Position numbers and translations under genes: made by a program. Under the pieces are notes generated by a model. It was given only the letters and a program-made list of their open reading frames with translations. It did not search any database and was not told the DNA's origin. Positions 45,518 to 54,678 of a stretch of DNA of 64,000 nucleotides are shown one piece after another. The stretch comes from Syntrophus sp. (in: bacteria) (GTDB lineage Bacteria > Desulfobacterota > Syntrophia > Syntrophales > UBA8958). The first letter of the stretch is position 1. Each line of letters starts with the position of its first letter. Location: assembly GCA_025355725.1 (NCBI GenBank), contig JANXZC010000109.1:38340-102339 (forward strand), in the 5' to 3' direction.

Positions 45518-45533
45518 TGGTACAACCCTTGCT
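45518..45533 (+). promoter_or_regulatory. Sigma54 (-24/-12) promoter candidate
   Basis: TGGTACAACCCTTGCT has exact GG-N10-GC geometry, about 57 nt upstream of the ATG at 45590. Confidence 0.6.
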
Positions 45534-45589
45534 GATATAAAAATCAAAAGCAGGGGAAAGCCAATCCAAGAGAAAGGAGGAATCGGCGT

Positions 45590-46054
45590 ATGATCGCATC
45601 GATGAAACTGATTGATCTGGTAGATAATCACGCGGAAAGAATCGCCGAACAGTGGGCTAAAAACGTGGTCAAAAACCCCATGACGCCTTATTATAAGAAA
45701 CTGGAGGCGGACAGACTCATACCCCAGGCGACAAGGTTGTATCACAAGTTCCGAAGCTTGTTTATGGAACCGAAACGTGCGGAAGCCTCCGACGGATATT
45801 TCTCCAAGTACGCTGAGGAACGATACAGAGAAGGCGTCCCTCTGCACGAGGCGATCTATGCTCTCATCCTGATGAGGCGTCAGATCTGGCTGTATGCAGA
45901 GTTTCAGGCCACTTTCTCAACAGCCGTAGAAAAACAGCAGGCCATTGATAGCGTCACCAGGACCATGCTCATGTTCGATTATGCCATGTACTTCATTACA
46001 AAAAAATATCGCGAACTGATGAAGCTGGAATGGTTTGAGGCGCCCAACACCTGA
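45590..46054 (+). CDS. Stand-alone sensor-globin/RsbR_N-like helical protein, paralog 2
   Basis: 154 aa with an AGGAGG SD. Same conserved blocks as paralogs 1 and 3. Confidence 0.6.
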   Translation: MIASMKLIDLVDNHAERIAEQWAKNVVKNPMTPYYKKLEADRLIPQATRLYHKFRSLFMEPKRAEASDGYFSKYAEERYREGVPLHEAIYALILMRRQIWLYAEFQATFSTAVEKQQAIDSVTRTMLMFDYAMYFITKKYRELMKLEWFEAPNT

Positions 46055-46114
46055 TAAAAACCGTAGAACAAGCCTTCCCTTAAGGGGGCAGCGAAGATAA
46101 GGAGGGCAAAGAGC

Positions 46115-46951
46115 ATGTCCGGTTCTCTGAAACTCGTTAATCTTATTGAGACCCACGCCGAGCCCATTGCCCGTCAATGGGCCAAGGACGTGAGAAAAAA
46201 TCCGCGGACCCCATCCTATCACGGCATCCCGGAGGACAAACTCGTTCCTGTGGGCATGAAATTCTACGACAACTTCAAACAAATGTTCTTTACCGACAAA
46301 CCGGCAGATACTTCTCAGCAATATTTTGCCCGGTATGCGGAAGAGCATCACCAAAGGAATATCCCCCTTAACGAGGCCCTCTATGCCCTGATCATGATGC
46401 GTCGCCACATCTGGCTCTACGCAGAGTTCCAGGCGATCTTCATCTCCGCCGTAGAGCAGAAACAAGCCGTGGACAGCCTCGTCCGGACCATCCTCATGTT
46501 CGACTACGCCATTTTCTTCATCAGCCAGCGCTACCAGGAATTGATCCGGCAAAGTATCGAGGAAAAGCTTGGCGTCGTGAATGTCCTGCGCATGGAAAGG
46601 CCCCTTGGAGCAAAGCAGGGGCCGTACAAGACCGCCATCATGATCGCCCTGGTCCTCGGCGCCTTTGGTCTGACCTATTATTATCATGCCATGTTGGGCC
46701 GGAATATCATTTTCACCCACCTTCTCTACATTCCTATTGTTTTGGCGGGTATCTGGTGGAAGAAAAAAGGCATTCTTGTCGCCGCGTGTTTGGGGGGGTA
46801 CCTGCTCCTGAGTCACTTGCTTTTTCTCAAGGGCATGCCCTTTACCGATGATATTATCCGGGCAGCGATGTTTCTCGTTATCGGAACCGTCGTGGCCTTC
46901 CTGAGTGAAGGGATTACAAGGGCTGAGGAACTCTATAAGCCCGCCAATTAA
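46115..46951 (+). CDS. Sensor-globin/RsbR_N-like domain fused to a 4-TM membrane module, paralog 3
   Basis: The N-terminal 150 aa are paralogous to the other two. The C-terminal has four hydrophobic helices ([56 protein letters not shown]). The stop lies 20 nt before atpD. Confidence 0.6.
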
Positions 46952-46971
46952 TGACGGAGGATAAAGAATAC

Positions 46972-51345: not shown

Positions 51346-52905
51346 ATGAAGGATATTGTATCGGAGAAGGAGGAGTTGAAGGTGTTTCTGGACGGCGCCT
51401 TCCGAACCATGGATAACGTCCTTTCCCAGCATGAAGCGGAACTGCGGGATCGTGAGGTAGGCACCGTCAATTACGTCGGTTACGGGATCGTCCGGGTCAG
51501 CGGCCTGCCGAACATCCGGGCCGACGAAGTCGTCCTCTTTCCCGGTAATCTTCAGGGACTGGTCTTCAATATCGATCCGGAGGAAATCGGGGTTATTCTC
51601 CTGGGGCCCAGCGCACATCTGGGGGCCGGGGATGAGGTGAGGCGCACCGACAGAATCCTCGATGTTCCCGTCGGGGAAGCGCTGATCGGCCGGGTGGTTG
51701 ACGCCTTGGGGCGCCCCTTGGACGACCAGGGGGAAATCCGGTCGGTGAAGCGGTTTGCAGTGGAACGGGAGGCCCCGCCGGTAATGGCCCGGGATCCCGT
51801 CACGGTTCCCCTCCAGACGGGCATCAAGGTAATCGACGCCCTTTTTCCCATCGGGCAGGGACAGCGGGAACTTATCGTCGGCGACCGCCAGACGGGGAAA
51901 ACGGCCATCGCCCTCGACACCATTATCAACCAGGCCGACAAGAACGTCCTCTGTATCTATTGCACCGTCGGGAAAAAGGCTTCCGATGTAGCCAAACTCA
52001 TCGCCGACCTGAAACAGTACAAAACCATGAGTTATGTAACCGTCGTGGTCGCCACCGGCGACGAGCCCCCGGGGCTCCAGTTCATTGCCCCCTACGCCGC
52101 CACCTCCATGGCTGAATATTTCATGTCCACCGGGCGTGACGTCCTTATCATCTATGATGATCTCACTTATCATGCCCGGGCCTACCGGGAGCTTTCCCTG
52201 CTGCTCCGGCGCCCGCCGGGCCGTGAGGCATTTCCCGGGGATATTTTCTATATCCATTCCCGGCTCCTGGAACGGTCGACCCATCTCCGGAAGGAACACG
52301 GCGGCGGCTCCCTGACATCCCTGCCCATCGTGGAAACGGAGGCTCAGGATATTTCCGGTTACATCCCGACCAATCTGATCTCCATCACCGACGGGCAGCT
52401 CTATCTATCACCAAGACTTTTCCAGAAGGGCATCCTACCCGCTGTGGATGTCGGCAAATCCGTTTCCCGCGTGGGCGGCAAGGCCCAGCTTCCGGCCTAC
52501 CGGGCCGTGGCGGGGGATGTCCGGATCTCATATTCCCAGTTTGAAGAACTGGAAACCTTTTCCCGCTTCGGCACCCGTCTGGACGACGCGACCCGGAAGG
52601 TCCTCGATCGGGGCTGGCGGGTCCGGGAGATCCTGAAGCAGCCCCAGTATCAGCCCATCCCCGTAGCTGAGCAGGTCGCGGCGCTGCTGGCCGTCACCTC
52701 GGGAAGTTATGACAGCGTCGCCGTTGATAAAATCCGGGACGCTGAAGCAGCCCTTCGTAAGACCATGGTTGAAAAACACGGCGATTTGAACGCCCGGATC
52801 AGTGCGGGTGAAAAACTCGGGTCTGCAGACCGGGACATTCTCGCCCGCGCGGCTACGGAAACGGCGTTATCTTATGGAAAGGAGCCGGAAAGTGCTGACC
52901 GCTGA
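51346..52905 (+). CDS. atpA: N-type F-ATPase alpha subunit
   Basis: P-loop GDRQTGKTA. Start is the ATG at 51346, after AAGGAG. Confidence 0.93.
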
Positions 52906-53773
52906 AGCCCTGAAGCGACAAATCCAGAGCGCCCAGGATCTCCTCGGCGTCGTGAAGACGATGAAGGCCCTGGCCGCCGTGAGTATCCGACAGTATCAGC
53001 GGGCCGTCGAGTCCTTGAGCGAGTACAACCGGACCGTCGAAATGGGCCTGCAGATCGTTCTGAAAAAGAGCCAGGGAACCTTTGCACCCTCGGGCGGGCG
53101 GATGACCCGTCTCGGGGCCATTATTTTCGGAACGGATCAGGGTCTCTGCGGCCAGTTCAACAACATCGTCGTCCATCACGCCCTTGAAGAAATGGACAAG
53201 ACAGGTGTAAAGAAAGAAGACCGGGTCGTGATTGCCATTGGGCTCAGGACCGCCGATATCCTCGAGGACTCGGGACAGAAGATTTTTGAAACCCTCGCCA
53301 CGCCTGGGTCCACGTCGGGAATCACTCCCATGGTGCAGGATATCACCCTGCTCCTTGAGAACTGGCGGTTCAAGAGTCAGGTGGAGCATATGCATCTTTA
53401 TTACAATGAATACATCTCCGGGGCCACTTACCGGCCCCGCCTGCTGAAACTGCTTCCCGTGGACAGGGCCTGGCTGCTGAATCTCCAGAGACAGAAATGG
53501 GAGTCCCGGACTCTCCCCCTGTTCACCATGGAATGGGAACATATCTTCCGGTCCATGATCCGGGAATACCTATTCGTTTCCATCTACAAAGCCTTCGCCA
53601 ATTCGCTGGCCAGCGAAAACGCCAGCCGGCGGGCGGCCATGCAAAATGCGGAGAAGAATATCGAAGAACGTCTTGAGGAGCTCCATGTCCATTTTCACCG
53701 CCAGCGACAGATGACGATCACGGAAGAGCTCCTGGATATTGTCGCTGGTTTTGAAGCCATGGGGAAAAACTGA
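52892..53773 (+). CDS. atpG: N-type F-ATPase gamma subunit
   Basis: ...[16 protein letters not shown]... and C-terminal [14 protein letters not shown] start after AAGGAG. The ATG at 52874 is an alternative. Confidence 0.85.
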
Positions 53774-53792
53774 TGAAAGGGGGTCACTGATT

Positions 53793-54578
53793 ATGGGAAT
53801 GGAAAAGACACTTTGCATTATCTGCGCCTGGCGGGAGCACTGTCAGAAAAGGTTCTCCATCACACAGCACGGAGGAGTTAACATTCATTGCCCCGATTTT
53901 ACAAGGGATTACGCCATCAAGGACTCGGATGTTGATTACAGTCTTGTTGATAAACAGTTGGAGAAATGGCGCAAAGAAGGGGCGATCAAGCCACGGCCGA
54001 CAATTACCGTTTCCCGTGACCCGGGGGCCGGGGGCAGCGAGGTTTCCCGAAAACTTGCCAAGGATCTCAAAATGGATCTAATGGGAGGGCAGATCATCTC
54101 CCGGGTGGCGGAAAGCGCCAACATGAGTGAAAAGGTCGTCAAGACCCTTGACGAAAAACACGTCAGCACCCTGGATAGTTGGATCAATTCGCTCTTTACC
54201 TCCCGCCATCTCTGGCCCGACGTTTATCTGCAACATCTGACCAAGGTGATTGGCGCCATCGGTGAGCACGGCAACGCTATCATCGTCGGGCGGGGGGCGC
54301 AGTTTATCCTGCCGCCGGAGCGGACTTTCCGTCTTCGCTTTGTCGCCCCCCTGGAACAGCGGATACAAAAGATCGCAAAAGATCGGAGCTGTTCTGCGGA
54401 AGAGGCGGAAAGCTACATCATCAAGACCGAAAATGACCGGGCTGCCTTTATCAAAAAGGCCTTTCATGAGGATATTGCGAGCCCCCTACATTACGATCTG
54501 GTGCTTAACACGGCGGGCATGACCATCGATGAAGCAGTGGAAACAATCAAAAACGCCTTCAAGGCGAGAAAATACTGA
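53793..54578 (+). CDS. Cytidylate-kinase-like family protein with an N-terminal Cys/His-rich extension
   Basis: ITVSRDPGAGGSEVSRKLA P-loop-like motif (Cytidylate_kin2 type). N-terminal CIICAWREHCQKRFSITQHGGVNIHC. Starts 20 nt after atpG. Confidence 0.7.
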   Translation: MGMEKTLCIICAWREHCQKRFSITQHGGVNIHCPDFTRDYAIKDSDVDYSLVDKQLEKWRKEGAIKPRPTITVSRDPGAGGSEVSRKLAKDLKMDLMGGQIISRVAESANMSEKVVKTLDEKHVSTLDSWINSLFTSRHLWPDVYLQHLTKVIGAIGEHGNAIIVGRGAQFILPPERTFRLRFVAPLEQRIQKIAKDRSCSAEEAESYIIKTENDRAAFIKKAFHEDIASPLHYDLVLNTAGMTIDEAVETIKNAFKARKY

Positions 54579-54634
54579 TCTTTCGAGCCTGTTTCCTGCA
54601 CCCCTTCTCCCCCCCGGTCAGGCGCCTGGTTATC

Positions 54635-54678
54635 GGCCCCTGGGCGGGGGACCTTCCCTGCCCAGGGGCCGGCTTTTT
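54635..54678 (+). terminator. Intrinsic terminator closing the ATPase operon
   Basis: GGCCCCTGGGC-N14-GCCCAGGGGCC followed by GGCTTTTT. Confidence 0.65.

What the first reader, a model, noticed from the sequence alone, without database searches (positions are those of the whole stretch)
45518..54678. Sigma54-driven N-ATPase operon headed by a sensor-like/4-TM gene pair and closed by a Cys-rich Cmk-like gene
Seen in sequence:
- A -24/-12 element (TGGTACAACCCTTGCT, 45518..45533) is followed by a single same-strand gene string.
- The string runs: helical sensor-like protein (45590..46054), its paralog fused to four TM helices (46115..46951), atpD-C-Q-R-B-E-F-A-G after only a 20-nt gap, a cytidylate-kinase-like gene 20 nt after atpG, and a strong terminator (54635..54678).

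Established knowledge:
- The atpDCQRBEFAG order defines N-ATPases.
- As far as I know, their regulation is essentially uncharacterised, and I know of no description of dedicated sensor or accessory genes in the operon.

Inference:
- The two leading genes and the trailing Cmk-like gene are operon-specific regulators or assembly factors.
- Expression depends on a bacterial enhancer-binding protein. One such protein, with its PAS kinase, is encoded 5.5 kb upstream (38535..42085).
- Dyads that could serve as a UAS lie upstream: GTTCATC-N5-GATGAAC at 45346..45364 and CTTGCAAA-N24-TTTGCAAG at 45180..45219.
Basis: partly seen in the sequence, partly recalled or inferred. Interest (0 to 1): 0.78.

Follow-up and report, generated by a model that had tools for sequence, protein, structure and literature searches.

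The report
Sigma54-controlled N-ATPase operon with sensor genes
A second, "N-type" rotary ATPase operon in an uncultured syntrophic bacterium (Syntrophales) carries three extra sensor-like genes and a conserved sigma-54 promoter with activator sites. This gives the first concrete handles on how this poorly understood ion pump is switched on and controlled.

Summary
One same-strand string (45590-54578) holds:
- two paralogous helical genes
- atpDCQRBEFAG, which passes the NCBIfam "alternate F1F0" models
- a Cys4/Cytidylate_kin2 gene
- an 18-bp terminator

Conservation in about 80 Syntrophales species genomes:
- Leader gene(s) directly precede atpD in 72 of 72 loci.
- The Cmk-like gene follows atpG in 50 of 50 loci.
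- A -24/-12 element lies 44-155 nt upstream of the first leader in 52 of 76 loci.
- An orthologous PAS-kinase/NtrC-type activator pair lies nearby in 37 of 54 loci.

The conserved sites are GCGAC-N6-GTC(G/A)(C/T) repeats at 45224-45261 and 45336-45351.

The leader genes belong to a small, mostly stand-alone branch of the non-haem sensor-globin superfamily (HisK_N/RsbRD_N; nearest solved structure is SkiA/pXO2-61). A third paralog sits upstream. The second leader is anchored by a weakly DUF4118-like 4-TM domain. The Cmk-like protein lacks the Walker-A lysine.

The leaders persist where the regulator is a PAS-LuxR protein instead. Distant relatives flank V-type and N-type ATPase operons in other lineages. 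N-ATPase operons of a cyanobacterium, a Legionella and a Polymorphobacter lack all three extra genes.

Verdict: a new variant of a known system. The function of the accessory genes is inferred, not shown.

The parts
45224..45239 (.). Activator site 1 (GCGACTTCCAGGTCAC), the first of a tandem pair about 295 nt upstream of the -24 element
   Evidence: Its columns are invariant in the footprint alignment A3. The pair recurs in orthologous loci. In the whole window, matches with at most 1 mismatch are few, and the only exact match lies next to this site.
45246..45261 (.). Activator site 2 (GCGACATTTTGGTCGC), a perfect GCGAC-N6-GTCGC dyad
   Evidence: It is the only exact match in 64 kb. It is conserved 190-340 nt upstream of the promoter in most sigma-54-type loci, including the Smithella variant GCGACATTTAAGTCAT.
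45336..45351 (.). Activator-like site 3 (ACGACCTTTTGTTCAT), a degenerate copy about 183 nt upstream of the -24 element
Evidence: It forms an invariant block G..GAC.TTT..TTC in A3. Equivalent sites occur in L013 and L023.
45518..45533 (+). Sigma-54 -24/-12 promoter element TGGTACAACCCTTGCT. The predicted transcript start is near 45544.
   Evidence: A match of at least 10 of 12 positions lies 44-155 nt upstream of the first leader gene in 52 of 76 orthologous loci. The GG and TTGC columns are invariant in A3.
45590..46054 (+). L1: a soluble, stand-alone non-haem sensor-globin-like protein of 154 aa
   Evidence: Pfam HisK_N scores 23.8 bits, just under the 24.4 cut-off. It is 53% identical to the N-domain of L2. 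The family profile reaches pXO2-61/SkiA at E 1.7e-7. It is conserved in front of L2.
46115..46951 (+). L2: the same sensor-globin domain (residues 1-150) fused by a long helix to a 4-TM domain that is weakly DUF4118-like
   Evidence: More than 560 homologs exist, all unannotated and from Syntrophales. The AlphaFold model has pLDDT 80. Foldseek matches 3pmd, 3pmc, 4uiq, 4zvb and 3zta with TM-scores (normalised to the target) of 0.66-0.80. DUF4118 scores E 0.1. Invariant polar residues in the membrane part are H202, S233 and R249; H234 and D246 are nearly invariant.
46973..48369 (+). atpD, N-ATPase beta subunit (the ORF opens at 46951)
   Evidence: TIGR03305 alt_F1F0_F1_bet scores 802 bits against a 752 cut-off.
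48441..48827 (+). atpC, epsilon subunit
   Evidence: TIGR03166 scores 141 against a 100 cut-off.
48820..49149 (+). atpQ
   Evidence: PF09527 and TIGR02230 (130 against 46.7).
49222..49530 (+). atpR, the marker gene of N-ATPase operons
   Evidence: PF12966 scores 84.6 bits and TIGR03165 scores 69.9 against 55.5.
49518..50246 (+). atpB, a subunit
   Evidence: TIGR03306 scores 298.4, just below its 302.1 cut-off. NF004481 scores 298.5 against 227.
50277..50555 (+). atpE, c subunit
   Evidence: TIGR03322 scores 155.8 against 130.85.
50559..51332 (+). atpF, a long b subunit of 257 aa. The operon has no separate delta gene.
   Evidence: TIGR03321 scores 245.7 against 224.7.
51346..52905 (+). atpA, alpha subunit
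   Evidence: TIGR03324 scores 802 against 750.5.
52874..53773 (+). atpG, gamma subunit
   Evidence: TIGR03323 scores 333.8 against 282.35.
53793..54578 (+). Cys4 plus Cytidylate_kin2 protein of 261 aa: an N-terminal CxxCx5Cx15C-P module joined to an NMP-kinase fold without the Walker-A lysine
   Evidence: PF13189 scores 145.9 bits. The true CMP-kinase model TIGR02173 scores 41.5 against a 102 cut-off. C8, C11, C17 and C33 are invariant, and the P-loop reads SRxxG(A/S)GGSE. The closest structures are 3hdt and 3fdi. The gene follows atpG in 50 of 50 loci.
54633..54682 (+). Intrinsic terminator that closes the operon. The next gene converges on the - strand.
   Evidence: 18-bp stem, -41.4 kcal/mol, z = -5.1, followed by a run of T.
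38535..39950 (-). NtrC-type activator (REC, sigma-54 AAA+ with GAFTGA, HTH_8), the candidate activator of the operon
   Evidence: Orthologs of 65-89% identity lie within the upstream flank of the operon in 37 of 54 loci. No other activator of this type was found among the window's ORFs that were scanned.
39947..42085 (-). Soluble hybrid histidine kinase (PAS, PAS_3, HisKA, HATPase_c, REC), partner of the activator
   Evidence: It overlaps the activator gene by 4 nt. The pair is conserved in other loci.
42397..42912 (-). P171: a third stand-alone sensor-globin paralog, 48% identical to L1
   Evidence: In many relatives it follows the Cmk-like gene and the triple-PAS gene, or it takes L1's place next to L2.
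43018..44406 (-). PAS462: three tandem PAS domains with no output domain. Each is 58-64% identical to the kinase's first PAS domain.
   Evidence: It is linked to the operon in most relatives, downstream of the Cmk-like gene or upstream of the leaders.

Best explanation
**What it is (shown).** This is the N-type (alternate F1Fo) ATPase operon of a Syntrophales bacterium. It is enlarged by three lineage-specific genes to a 12-gene unit:
- L1, a soluble non-haem sensor-globin protein
- L2, its paralog anchored by a 4-TM domain
- atpDCQRBEFAG
- a Cys4 / NMP-kinase-like protein without the Walker-A lysine

**How it is switched on (inferred from comparison of about 80 genomes).**
1. The soluble PAS hybrid kinase (39947-42085) senses an unknown cytoplasmic signal through a distinctive Cys-containing PAS domain.
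2. It phosphorylates the NtrC-type activator (38535-39950).
3. The activator binds the GCGAC-N6-GTC(G/A)(C/T) sites at 45224-45261 (tandem pair) and 45336-45351.
4. It contacts sigma-54 RNA polymerase held at 45518-45533.
5. Transcription starts near 45544 and runs to the terminator at 54633-54682.

**What the accessory proteins do (inference, about 40% likely).** All three are sensor-type modules with no DNA-binding or catalytic output. They are made from the same mRNA as the enzyme. I propose that they act on the ATPase itself:
- L2, perhaps as a heterodimer with L1, docks at the membrane sector.
- The Cmk-like protein reports nucleotide and/or redox state through a possible Fe-S or Zn site.
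- Together they would gate ATP-driven ion pumping so that ATP is not wasted.

PAS462 and P171 are copies of the two sensor domains without outputs. They probably buffer or titrate the same signals.
For: **Identity of the ATPase**
- atpR, atpQ, the gene order and the alt_F1F0 models match for beta, epsilon, c, b, alpha and gamma.

**Single unit**
- Gene junctions range from -32 to +72 nt, with only weak terminator-like hits inside the operon.
- Sigma-70-like hits are no more frequent than in shuffled sequence.
- The terminator is strong.
- Leaders are followed by atpD in 72/72 loci, and atpG by the Cmk-like gene in 50/50.

**Sigma-54 control**
- Two motif hits in 64 kb against 0.24 expected, both just upstream of genes.
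- The motif is conserved in 52 of 76 loci and invariant in the footprint alignment.

**Activator sites**
-.
- The same site type plus a -24/-12 element directly precede atpD, next to an orthologous kinase-activator pair, in a lineage without leaders (L088).
- The activator has GAFTGA and a REC aspartate.

**Leaders are sensor globins**
-.

**Leaders go with the enzyme rather than with one regulator**
- They persist where a PASx4-LuxR regulator replaces the kinase, activator and sigma-54 motif.
- Relatives of 25-34% identity lead, trail or face V-type and N-type ATPase operons in 7 of 36 metagenome loci of at least 5 kb.

**Specificity**
- Three distant N-ATPase operons lack all three extra genes.

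**PAS462**
- Its three PAS domains are copies of the kinase's sensor PAS.
Against: - There are no transcript, binding or protein-interaction data.
- The window's -24 element reads TGGTAC rather than TGGCAC.
- Here the kinase and activator lie 3.4-7 kb away on the opposite strand. In 17 of 54 loci no ortholog is found in the upstream flank.
- The only characterised homologs of the leaders (SkiA/pXO2-61, pXO1-118, RsbR) act in signalling to kinases, not on enzymes (PMC5862856). No globin-fold regulator of a rotary ATPase is known.
- P171 pairs with a PAS protein, which hints at a globin-PAS partnership, that is, at signalling.
- Pfam scores of the window's own leaders fall below the curated cut-offs.
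- The Cys-rich N-terminus of the Cmk-like protein was modelled with pLDDT below 50, so its metal site is a guess.
- The link between distant relatives and ATPase operons holds in a minority of loci, and these come from one related clade.
Confidence: 0.55

Rival explanations
1. The leaders, and perhaps the Cmk-like protein, are feedback regulators of transcription. Like SkiA/pXO2-61 or the Psp system, the soluble L1 (and P171) would bind or titrate the signal or the PAS domain of the kinase or the LuxR-type regulator. Membrane-bound L2 would sequester L1 in response to a membrane signal. Their target would be the regulators, not the enzyme.
For: - The closest characterised relatives are stand-alone sensor domains that act through a histidine kinase (PMC5862856).
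- P171 is consistently paired with PAS462, a triple copy of the kinase's sensor PAS.
- In the PAS-LuxR type loci the regulator gene sits directly in front of L2.
- Placing a feedback regulator first in a sigma-54 operon has a precedent in pspA (my own knowledge).
Against: - The kinase, activator and sigma-54 circuit exists without L1 and L2 in L088.
- The leaders persist across a complete change of regulator type.
- Distant relatives sit at V-type operons with no PAS regulator called nearby.
- The first-in-operon position suggests abundant product, which is more typical of effectors.
Confidence: 0.3
2. The accessory proteins are assembly chaperones or extra structural subunits of the Syntrophales N-ATPase, for example helping c-ring or stator assembly, with no sensing role.
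For: - They are tightly co-encoded with the structural genes in every genome examined.
- L2 is an integral membrane protein with invariant charged or polar residues in its membrane part.
- AtpR and AtpQ were themselves proposed as assembly or regulatory factors (PMC2881411).
Against: - The globin domain belongs to a sensor superfamily.
- N-ATPases elsewhere do without these genes, and L088 does without L1 and L2.
- Extra unlinked paralogs such as P171, and a Cmk-like paralog next to the kinase in L001, fit signalling better than assembly.
Confidence: 0.12
3. The arrangement has no functional meaning. The -24/-12 match is a chance hit, transcription is from sigma-70 promoters, and the flanking genes are only neighbours.
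For: - There are no expression data.
- The window's -24 hexamer is imperfect.
- A sigma-70-like 9-of-12 match lies inside L2 (46681-46710).
Against: - Conservation of the motif, the upstream sites, the gene order and the tight spacing holds across proteins only 47-99% identical and across several local rearrangements.
- Sigma-70-like hits are no more frequent than in shuffles.
Confidence: 0.03

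Closest known systems
N-ATPase operon atpDCQRBEFAG (Dibrova et al. 2010, PMC2881411; Burkholderia c17 ring, PMC5376962)
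   Same: Same nine genes in the same order, with atpR and atpQ, a long b subunit, no delta gene, and subunits that score on the 'alternate F1F0' models. Dibrova et al. already noted an N-ATPase in Syntrophus aciditrophicus.
   Different: The described operons have nine genes. No dedicated sensor or accessory genes or regulators were found in the papers read (PMC2881411, PMC5376962) or in text searches. Three distant examples checked here have none. This one has two leader genes, a trailing gene, a conserved sigma-54 promoter with activator sites and a linked two-component system.
Stand-alone non-haem sensor globins SkiA/pXO2-61 and pXO1-118 of Bacillus anthracis (PDB 3pmc, 3pmd; Pfam HisK_N) and the RsbR/RsbRD N-domains
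   Same: Same fold and detectable sequence homology through the family profile. Like SkiA, L1 and P171 are sensor domains without any output, encoded alongside paralogs that are attached to something else.
   Different: SkiA mimics the sensor of a sporulation kinase. Here no kinase carries this domain. The attached partner is a 4-TM domain, and the genes sit inside or next to rotary ATPase operons. The Syntrophales proteins score below Pfam cut-offs and form their own small family: 415 clusters among 1.84 billion representative proteins.
NtrC/AtoC/ZraR-type two-component control of sigma-54 promoters
   Same: REC-AAA+(GAFTGA)-HTH_8 activator with a partner kinase, a -24/-12 promoter, and tandem dyad sites 180-300 nt upstream.
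   Different: The activator falls below the cut-off of every named NCBIfam equivalog (best is AtoC, 376 against 714 bits). The site GCGAC-N6-GTCGC and the target, an ATPase operon, were not found in the papers searched.
Cytidylate_kin2 family (PF13189; structural-genomics entries 3hdt, 3fdi)
   Same: Clear family member with an NMP-kinase fold.
   Different: It carries an added invariant CxxCx5Cx15CP module and lacks the Walker-A lysine. It fails the true CMP-kinase model. No function for the family was found in the papers searched.
KdpD-type DUF4118 membrane domain
   Same: Four TM helices of similar length, with weak profile matches (E 0.02-0.1 in 4 of 27 members).
   Different: The match is below any significance threshold, and L2 has no kinase, GAF or Usp domain. 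This is a resemblance only.

Membership tests
N-ATPase (alternate F1Fo) | Gene order atpD-C-Q-R-B-E-F-A-G | tested here: met
   ORFs and domain hits appear in that order on the + strand.
N-ATPase (alternate F1Fo) | Presence of atpR (PF12966 / TIGR03165) and atpQ (PF09527 / TIGR02230) | tested here: met
   Both score above the curated cut-offs.
N-ATPase (alternate F1Fo) | Subunits belong to the N-type clade rather than the ordinary F-type | tested here: met
   The alt_F1F0 exception models are passed by beta, epsilon, c, b, alpha and gamma. Subunit a is 3.7 bits short.
N-ATPase (alternate F1Fo) | No atpH gene; long b subunit | tested here: met
   There is no OSCP gene in the string, and b is 257 aa.
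N-ATPase (alternate F1Fo) | Always a second enzyme beside an ordinary F- or A-type ATPase in the same genome | not testable with these tools
   Only a 64-kb window of a metagenome-derived genome is available.
N-ATPase (alternate F1Fo) | Full set of Na+ ligands in the c subunit | tested here: inconclusive
   By eye the c subunit has Gln in GLGQG and Glu-Ser...Tyr in MIESIAIY, but Ile where Na+-binding rings have Thr or Ser. No alignment to a reference ring was run.
Sigma-54-dependent promoter | GG and GC dinucleotides with canonical spacing, correctly oriented upstream of the gene | tested here: met
   45518-45533, 56 nt before the start codon.
Sigma-54-dependent promoter | Conservation at orthologous loci | tested here: met
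   52 of 76 loci; invariant columns in A3.
Sigma-54-dependent promoter | A cognate activator with a GAFTGA AAA+ domain, and upstream binding sites | tested here: met
   The activator is at 38535-39950. GCGAC-N6-GTC sites are conserved. Which protein binds them is inferred.
Sigma-54-dependent promoter | rpoN present in the genome; transcription start mapped and dependent on rpoN | not testable with these tools
   This needs the whole genome and experiments.
HisK_N / RsbRD_N non-haem sensor globins | Pfam score at or above the gathering cut-off | tested here: not met
   L1 scores 23.8 against 24.4, P171 scores 19.8 and L2 scores 13.3. More distant family members do pass, for example P0277 on RsbRD_N with 27.8 against 24.3; 26 of 35 match at E<0.1.
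HisK_N / RsbRD_N non-haem sensor globins | Homology to a solved member | tested here: met
   The family profile A6 matches 3pmc at E 1.7e-7 and 3pmd at E 0.015.
HisK_N / RsbRD_N non-haem sensor globins | Globin fold | tested here: met
   The model (pLDDT 80) matches 3pmd, 3pmc, globin-coupled sensors and 3zta with TM-scores (normalised to the target) of 0.66-0.80, although Foldseek E-values are only 0.1-1.4.
HisK_N / RsbRD_N non-haem sensor globins | No haem-ligating histidine | tested here: inconclusive
   The only candidate, His98 of L2, is Asn in 15 of 79 L2-type proteins, Gln in 20 of 71 short paralogs and Glu in pXO2-61.
HisK_N / RsbRD_N non-haem sensor globins | N-terminal sensor of a kinase (HisK_N) or of a STAS stressosome protein (RsbR) | tested here: not met
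   Family members are stand-alone (140-190 aa) or 4-TM fusions. No long kinase-length protein appears among the best 150 representatives.
Cytidylate kinase (true CMP kinase) | Passes the (d)CMP kinase model and has Walker-A GxxGxGK(S/T) | tested here: not met
   TIGR02173 scores 41.5 against 102.1. The P-loop is G(A/S)GGSE without the lysine in all 22 aligned members.
Cytidylate_kin2 (PF13189) | Pfam score above the cut-off, and an NMP-kinase fold | tested here: met
   145.9 against 28 bits. Foldseek matches 3hdt at E 1e-10 with a TM-score (normalised to the target) of 0.89.
DUF4118 | Significant profile match | tested here: inconclusive
   E 0.1 for the window protein; 4 of 27 relatives at E 0.02-0.1.

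The most novel reading that the evidence does not exclude
A small family of non-haem sensor-globin proteins, here L1, L2 and P171 together with a Cys4/NMP-kinase-like partner, are ligand-gated regulatory subunits. They bind rotary ATPases of more than one type (N-type in Syntrophales, V-type and N-type in another clade). They switch ion pumping on or off in response to a metabolite, redox or nucleotide signal. This would be a mode of rotary ATPase control for which I know of no bacterial precedent.
Probability: 0.2. Interest if true: 0.85.

Novelty: new variant of a known kind. Interest (0 to 1): 0.62.

Why it matters
N-ATPases were defined in 2010. Their physiological role, ion specificity in many hosts, and regulation remain largely open (PMC2881411, PMC5376962).

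This locus gives a whole order of syntrophic bacteria a predicted regulatory circuit that can be tested piece by piece:
- a sensor PAS domain
- a kinase
- an activator
- a defined DNA site
- a sigma-54 promoter

It also gives three accessory proteins that are always co-encoded with the enzyme.

Syntrophs live near the thermodynamic limit. Knowing when a second, ATP-consuming ion pump is made and how it is restrained therefore bears directly on their energy budget.

If the sensor-globin proteins act on the enzyme itself, this would be a new principle of control for rotary ATPases. It would also give a function to two unannotated protein families.

Tried and rejected
They are present in the window, but conserved only in relatives about 93-99% identical (L007, L008, L009 and L022; weaker in the last two) and absent in L011-L014. 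Rejected in favour of the GCGAC-N6-GTC sites.
- **Haem-based globin-coupled sensor.** This looked attractive because His98 of L2 matches, by my memory of the numbering, the proximal His of DosC and BpeGReg, and because distant relatives lie next to siroheme-pathway haem genes. It was weakened on three counts. The His is Asn or Gln in many members. The family is homologous to non-haem globins. The haem genes are convergent neighbours in what looks like one lineage's synteny.
- **Riboswitch or other known RNA in the leader or intergenic regions.** No Rfam hit was found.
- **IHF site between the activator sites and the promoter.** No consensus match there.
- **Na+/H+ exchanger as a general partner.** It occurs in only one species group.
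- **Profile of L2 against PDB sequences.** Nothing significant.
- **Context of distant family members by exact-protein look-up.** The contigs were too short.
- **Literature.** No paper found links N-ATPase with sigma-54 or activators, and none gives a function for Cytidylate_kin2. The S. aciditrophicus genome paper is not held.

Full report
**1. The observation**

The window carries an uninterrupted + strand string of twelve ORFs from 45590 to 54578.

Pfam and NCBIfam identify nine of them as atpD, C, Q, R, B, E, F, A and G of the N-type ("alternate F1F0") ATPase.
- AtpR (PF12966) and AtpQ (PF09527) are present.
- The curated alt_F1F0 models are passed by beta, epsilon, c, b, alpha and gamma. 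Subunit a is 3.7 bits short.

The other elements are as follows.
- The first two ORFs (154 and 278 aa) are paralogs, 53% identical over 145 aa.
- The last ORF is a Cytidylate_kin2 protein. Its likely start at 53793 lies 19 nt after atpG, behind an AAAGGGGG ribosome-binding site.
- An 18-bp GC-rich hairpin followed by a run of T (54633-54682; -41.4 kcal/mol, z = -5.1) closes the string. The next gene converges on the other strand.
- TGGTACAACCCTTGCT at 45518-45533 has the canonical GG/GC spacing of a sigma-54 promoter.
  - The pattern occurs twice in 64 kb against 0.24 expected.
  - The second copy (4364-4379, - strand) lies in front of a ZraP/CpxP-like gene (Metal_resist/LTXXQ). From my own knowledge, that gene class is a classic sigma-54 target.

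Gene junctions inside the string range from an overlap of 32 nt to a gap of 72 nt. Sigma-70-like hits are no more frequent than in shuffled sequence.

**2. Conservation**

The 278-aa protein (L2) has more than 560 homologs. All are unannotated and, where a source names the organism, come from Syntrophales. A scan of one genome per species returned 80 loci from Syntrophales, Syntrophaceae, Smithellaceae and Smithella MAGs, with L2 identities of 42-99%.

I mapped the window's proteins onto these loci by tblastn.
- atpD directly follows the leader gene(s) in 72 of 72 loci with enough sequence.
- The Cmk-like gene follows atpG in 50 of 50.
- An ortholog of the window's activator (more than 60% identical) lies in the upstream flank in 37 of 54 loci, on the operon's strand in 32 of those.

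Gene calls with precomputed Pfam hits show the same picture in three loci whose outer flanks are unrelated to each other.

The typical cluster is: kinase, activator, L1, L2, atpDCQRBEFAG, Cmk-like gene, a triple-PAS protein, a 171-aa protein. In the window the last two genes (43018-44406 and 42397-42912) and the kinase-activator pair lie upstream on the minus strand. Linkage has therefore survived rearrangement. A fragment of an IF-2B/MtnA-type gene (44609-44767) lies in the 1.2-kb intergenic region and fits such a rearrangement.

The 171-aa protein is a third paralog of the leaders, 48% identical to L1.

**3. Promoter and activator sites**

A match of at least 10 of 12 to TGGCACG-N4-TTGCW lies 44-155 nt upstream of the first leader gene in 52 of 76 loci.

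Reading the upstream regions of three divergent loci revealed a tandem repeat of GCGAC-N6-GTCGC 190-330 nt upstream of the promoter. In the window these are GCGACTTCCAGGTCAC (45224-45239) and GCGACATTTTGGTCGC (45246-45261). The latter is the only exact match in 64 kb.

In a footprint alignment of eight upstream regions, the invariant columns cluster on four features:
- these two sites
- a third, degenerate copy (ACGACCTTTTGTTCAT, 45336-45351)
- the -24/-12 element
- the ribosome-binding site

The Smithella clade carries the variant GCGACATTTAAGTCAT at the same distance.

Only the left arm of GTTCATC-N5-GATGAAC is conserved, because it overlaps site 3.

The activator has REC, a sigma-54 AAA+ domain with GAFTGA, and HTH_8. 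It matches no named equivalog. No other activator of this type was found among the window's ORFs that were scanned.

One informative locus (L088) has the orthologous kinase-activator pair, the same kind of tandem sites and a -24/-12 element (CGGCATACCGGTTGCA) directly in front of atpD. It has no L1 or L2, but it keeps the Cmk-like gene and a P171-like gene downstream.

That the activator binds these sites is an inference from co-occurrence. It has not been shown.

**4. What the accessory proteins are**

*Leaders.*
- Pfam gives only sub-threshold HisK_N hits: L1 23.8 against 24.4 bits, P171 E 8e-4, L2 E 0.08. The C-terminus of L2 gives a weak DUF4118 hit.
- An AlphaFold model of L2 (pLDDT 80) is all-helical: a six-helix N-domain, a long connector and a membrane domain of three long modelled helices that I read as four TM segments.
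- Foldseek places the N-domain among sensor globins.
  - Non-haem members: pXO1-118, pXO2-61 and the MtR stressosome protein.
  - Haem members: the globin-coupled sensors.
  - TM-scores normalised to the target are 0.66-0.80, but E-values are modest at 0.1-1.4.
- A profile of the three window paralogs finds only 415 clusters among 1.84 billion representative proteins. Most are stand-alone proteins of 140-190 aa, and none of the best 150 has kinase length.
- A profile of 35 diverse members hits pXO2-61/SkiA at E 1.7e-7. Of these members, 26 match RsbRD_N and 22 match HisK_N.

The leaders are therefore a small, divergent, mostly stand-alone branch of the non-haem sensor-globin superfamily.

The one candidate haem ligand (His98 of L2) is Asn in 15 of 79 L2-type proteins, Gln in 20 of 71 short paralogs and Glu in pXO2-61. 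Haem binding is therefore not a family property.

L2's membrane domain keeps invariant H202, Y205, P207, W214/W215, S233 and R249; H234 and D246 are nearly invariant.

*Trailing protein.*
- It is a clear Cytidylate_kin2 member with an NMP-kinase fold. Its closest structures are the uncharacterised 3hdt and 3fdi.
- It fails the true CMP-kinase model and has G(A/S)GGSE in place of the Walker-A GK(S/T).
- Its N-terminus has four invariant cysteines, CxxCx5Cx15C-P. From memory, the CxxCx5C part recalls the Fe-S motif of WhiB-like proteins. The model is unstructured there, so the metal is unknown.
- A paralog without the Cys module sits in front of the kinase gene in some relatives.

*Kinase and triple-PAS protein.* The kinase's first PAS domain is 58-64% identical to each of the three PAS domains of the output-less 462-aa protein. 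All share a motif RPC(L/M)ADL.

**5. Which way do the accessory proteins point?**

Four observations tie the leaders to the enzyme rather than to one regulator.
- About 15 loci have a PAS-rich gene directly in front of L2 and no sigma-54 motif.
  - In the two checked (L039, L087) it is a PASx4-LuxR(GerE) regulator.
  - The operon still begins with L2 followed by a P171-like paralog.
- The sigma-54 circuit works without L1 and L2 in L088.
- A metagenome scan used members only 25-34% identical to the window's leaders. They lie at rotary ATPase operons in 7 of 36 loci of at least 5 kb:
  - first gene of a V-type operon (L133, 11 nt before subunit I)
  - just downstream of V-type B and D (L143, L161)
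  - divergent from a V-type operon (L114, L119)
  - as a pair divergent from another N-ATPase operon (L142, L144)

  The expectation for a random gene is my own rough estimate, a few per cent at most. These loci belong to one clade, so they are not fully independent.
- All three accessory proteins lack DNA-binding or catalytic outputs, and they are made from the enzyme's own mRNA.

Other facts point to signalling instead.
- The only characterised relatives act through kinases. SkiA is thought to titrate the signal of kinase BA2291 (PMC5862856).
- P171 is paired with a PAS-only protein.

I therefore commit to direct, post-translational control of the pump as the most likely role (about 40%). 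Feedback on transcription follows at about 30% and assembly at about 12%.

**6. Comparison with what is known**

- Dibrova et al. defined N-ATPases by this gene order and by atpR. They noted the Syntrophus enzyme and discussed only AtpR and AtpQ as possible assembly or regulatory factors (PMC2881411).
- Schulz et al. call the cellular functions of N-type ATPases largely unexplored (PMC5376962).
- N-ATPase operons on plasmids of Picosynechococcus, Legionella anisa and Polymorphobacter have no leader genes and no Cytidylate_kin2 gene.
- Text searches found no paper linking N-ATPase with sigma-54 or activators, and none giving a function for Cytidylate_kin2.

**7. Verdict**

The activator sites are corrected and the cluster is enlarged by P171 and the triple-PAS protein.

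It is a new variant of a known system: an N-ATPase operon with a lineage-specific sensory layer and the first comparative prediction of its regulatory circuit. The mechanism of the accessory proteins remains an inference. The possible general link between this sensor-globin family and rotary ATPases is the most novel lead.

Noticed in passing
window 4364-4379 (- strand), genes 3609-4322 and 2362-3612 (-): The only other strict sigma-54 motif in the window (TGGCATAGCCCTTGCT) lies just upstream of a Metal_resist/LTXXQ (ZraP/CpxP-like) gene, which is followed by a MacB/FtsX-type permease. This looks like a second sigma-54 unit.
   Followed up: partly
window 44609-44767 (- strand), within the 1.2-kb intergenic region 44407-45589: A 52-aa ORF matches the C-terminal end of the IF-2B/MtnA family (E 4e-6). 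It is probably a pseudogene remnant that marks a rearrangement between the regulator genes and the operon.
   Followed up: partly
window 44861-44846 (- strand): A weaker sigma-54-like motif (TGGCCTGTATCTTGCT, 10 of 12) points towards the triple-PAS/P171/kinase/activator genes, about 360 nt from the activator sites. It is identical in L008 and degraded in L022. This may indicate divergent autoregulation, or it may be chance.
   Followed up: partly
window 43018-44406 (-) and 41576-41998 (-): The triple-PAS protein consists of three copies of the kinase's sensor PAS domain (58-64% identity), all with a conserved RPC(L/M)ADL cysteine motif. The same PAS subtype appears in the PAS-LuxR regulators that replace the kinase and activator in other Syntrophales. 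The ligand is unknown.
   Followed up: partly
L133 9001-17193; L143 12-2890; L161 15-2759; L114/L119 about 1900-9450; L142/L144 about 1290-9490: Distant stand-alone members of the leader family lie first in, just after, or divergent from V-type ATPase operons, and divergent from another N-ATPase operon. This suggests a wider link between the family and rotary ATPases.
   Followed up: partly
L142-L173 (for example L150 205-3785, L167 270-3832): In 17 metagenome loci a pair of these globin-like genes converges on siroheme decarboxylase (NirDL/AhbAB-like), radical-SAM/SPASM and HemB genes. This could hint at haem, or it could simply be the synteny of one lineage.
   Followed up: partly
L001/L015/L017/L019 about 2540-3230 or 4730-5500; L001 7102-8943: Some relatives carry a second Cytidylate_kin2 paralog, without the Cys module, directly upstream of the kinase gene. 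One species group also has a Na+/H+ exchanger-TrkA_N gene between the activator and L1.
   Followed up: partly
window 50277-50555 (c subunit): The ion-site residues read Gln (GLGQG) and Glu-Ser-Ile...Tyr (MIESIAIY). This is most but not all of the Na+ ligand set, so Na+ versus H+ coupling cannot be called from sequence.
   Followed up: no
L001 10906-12431; L043 and L080 near 10850-11600: atpD appears split into two pieces in a few MAG loci. This is either a frameshift or an assembly error.
   Followed up: no
window 4981-5796 (-), 7071-8774 (+), 10319-11560 (-): A ParB-like gene, a DNA methylase fused to an inactive restriction-endonuclease-like domain, and an AAA_14 ATPase cluster near the window start. 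This may be a mobile or defence island.
   Followed up: no
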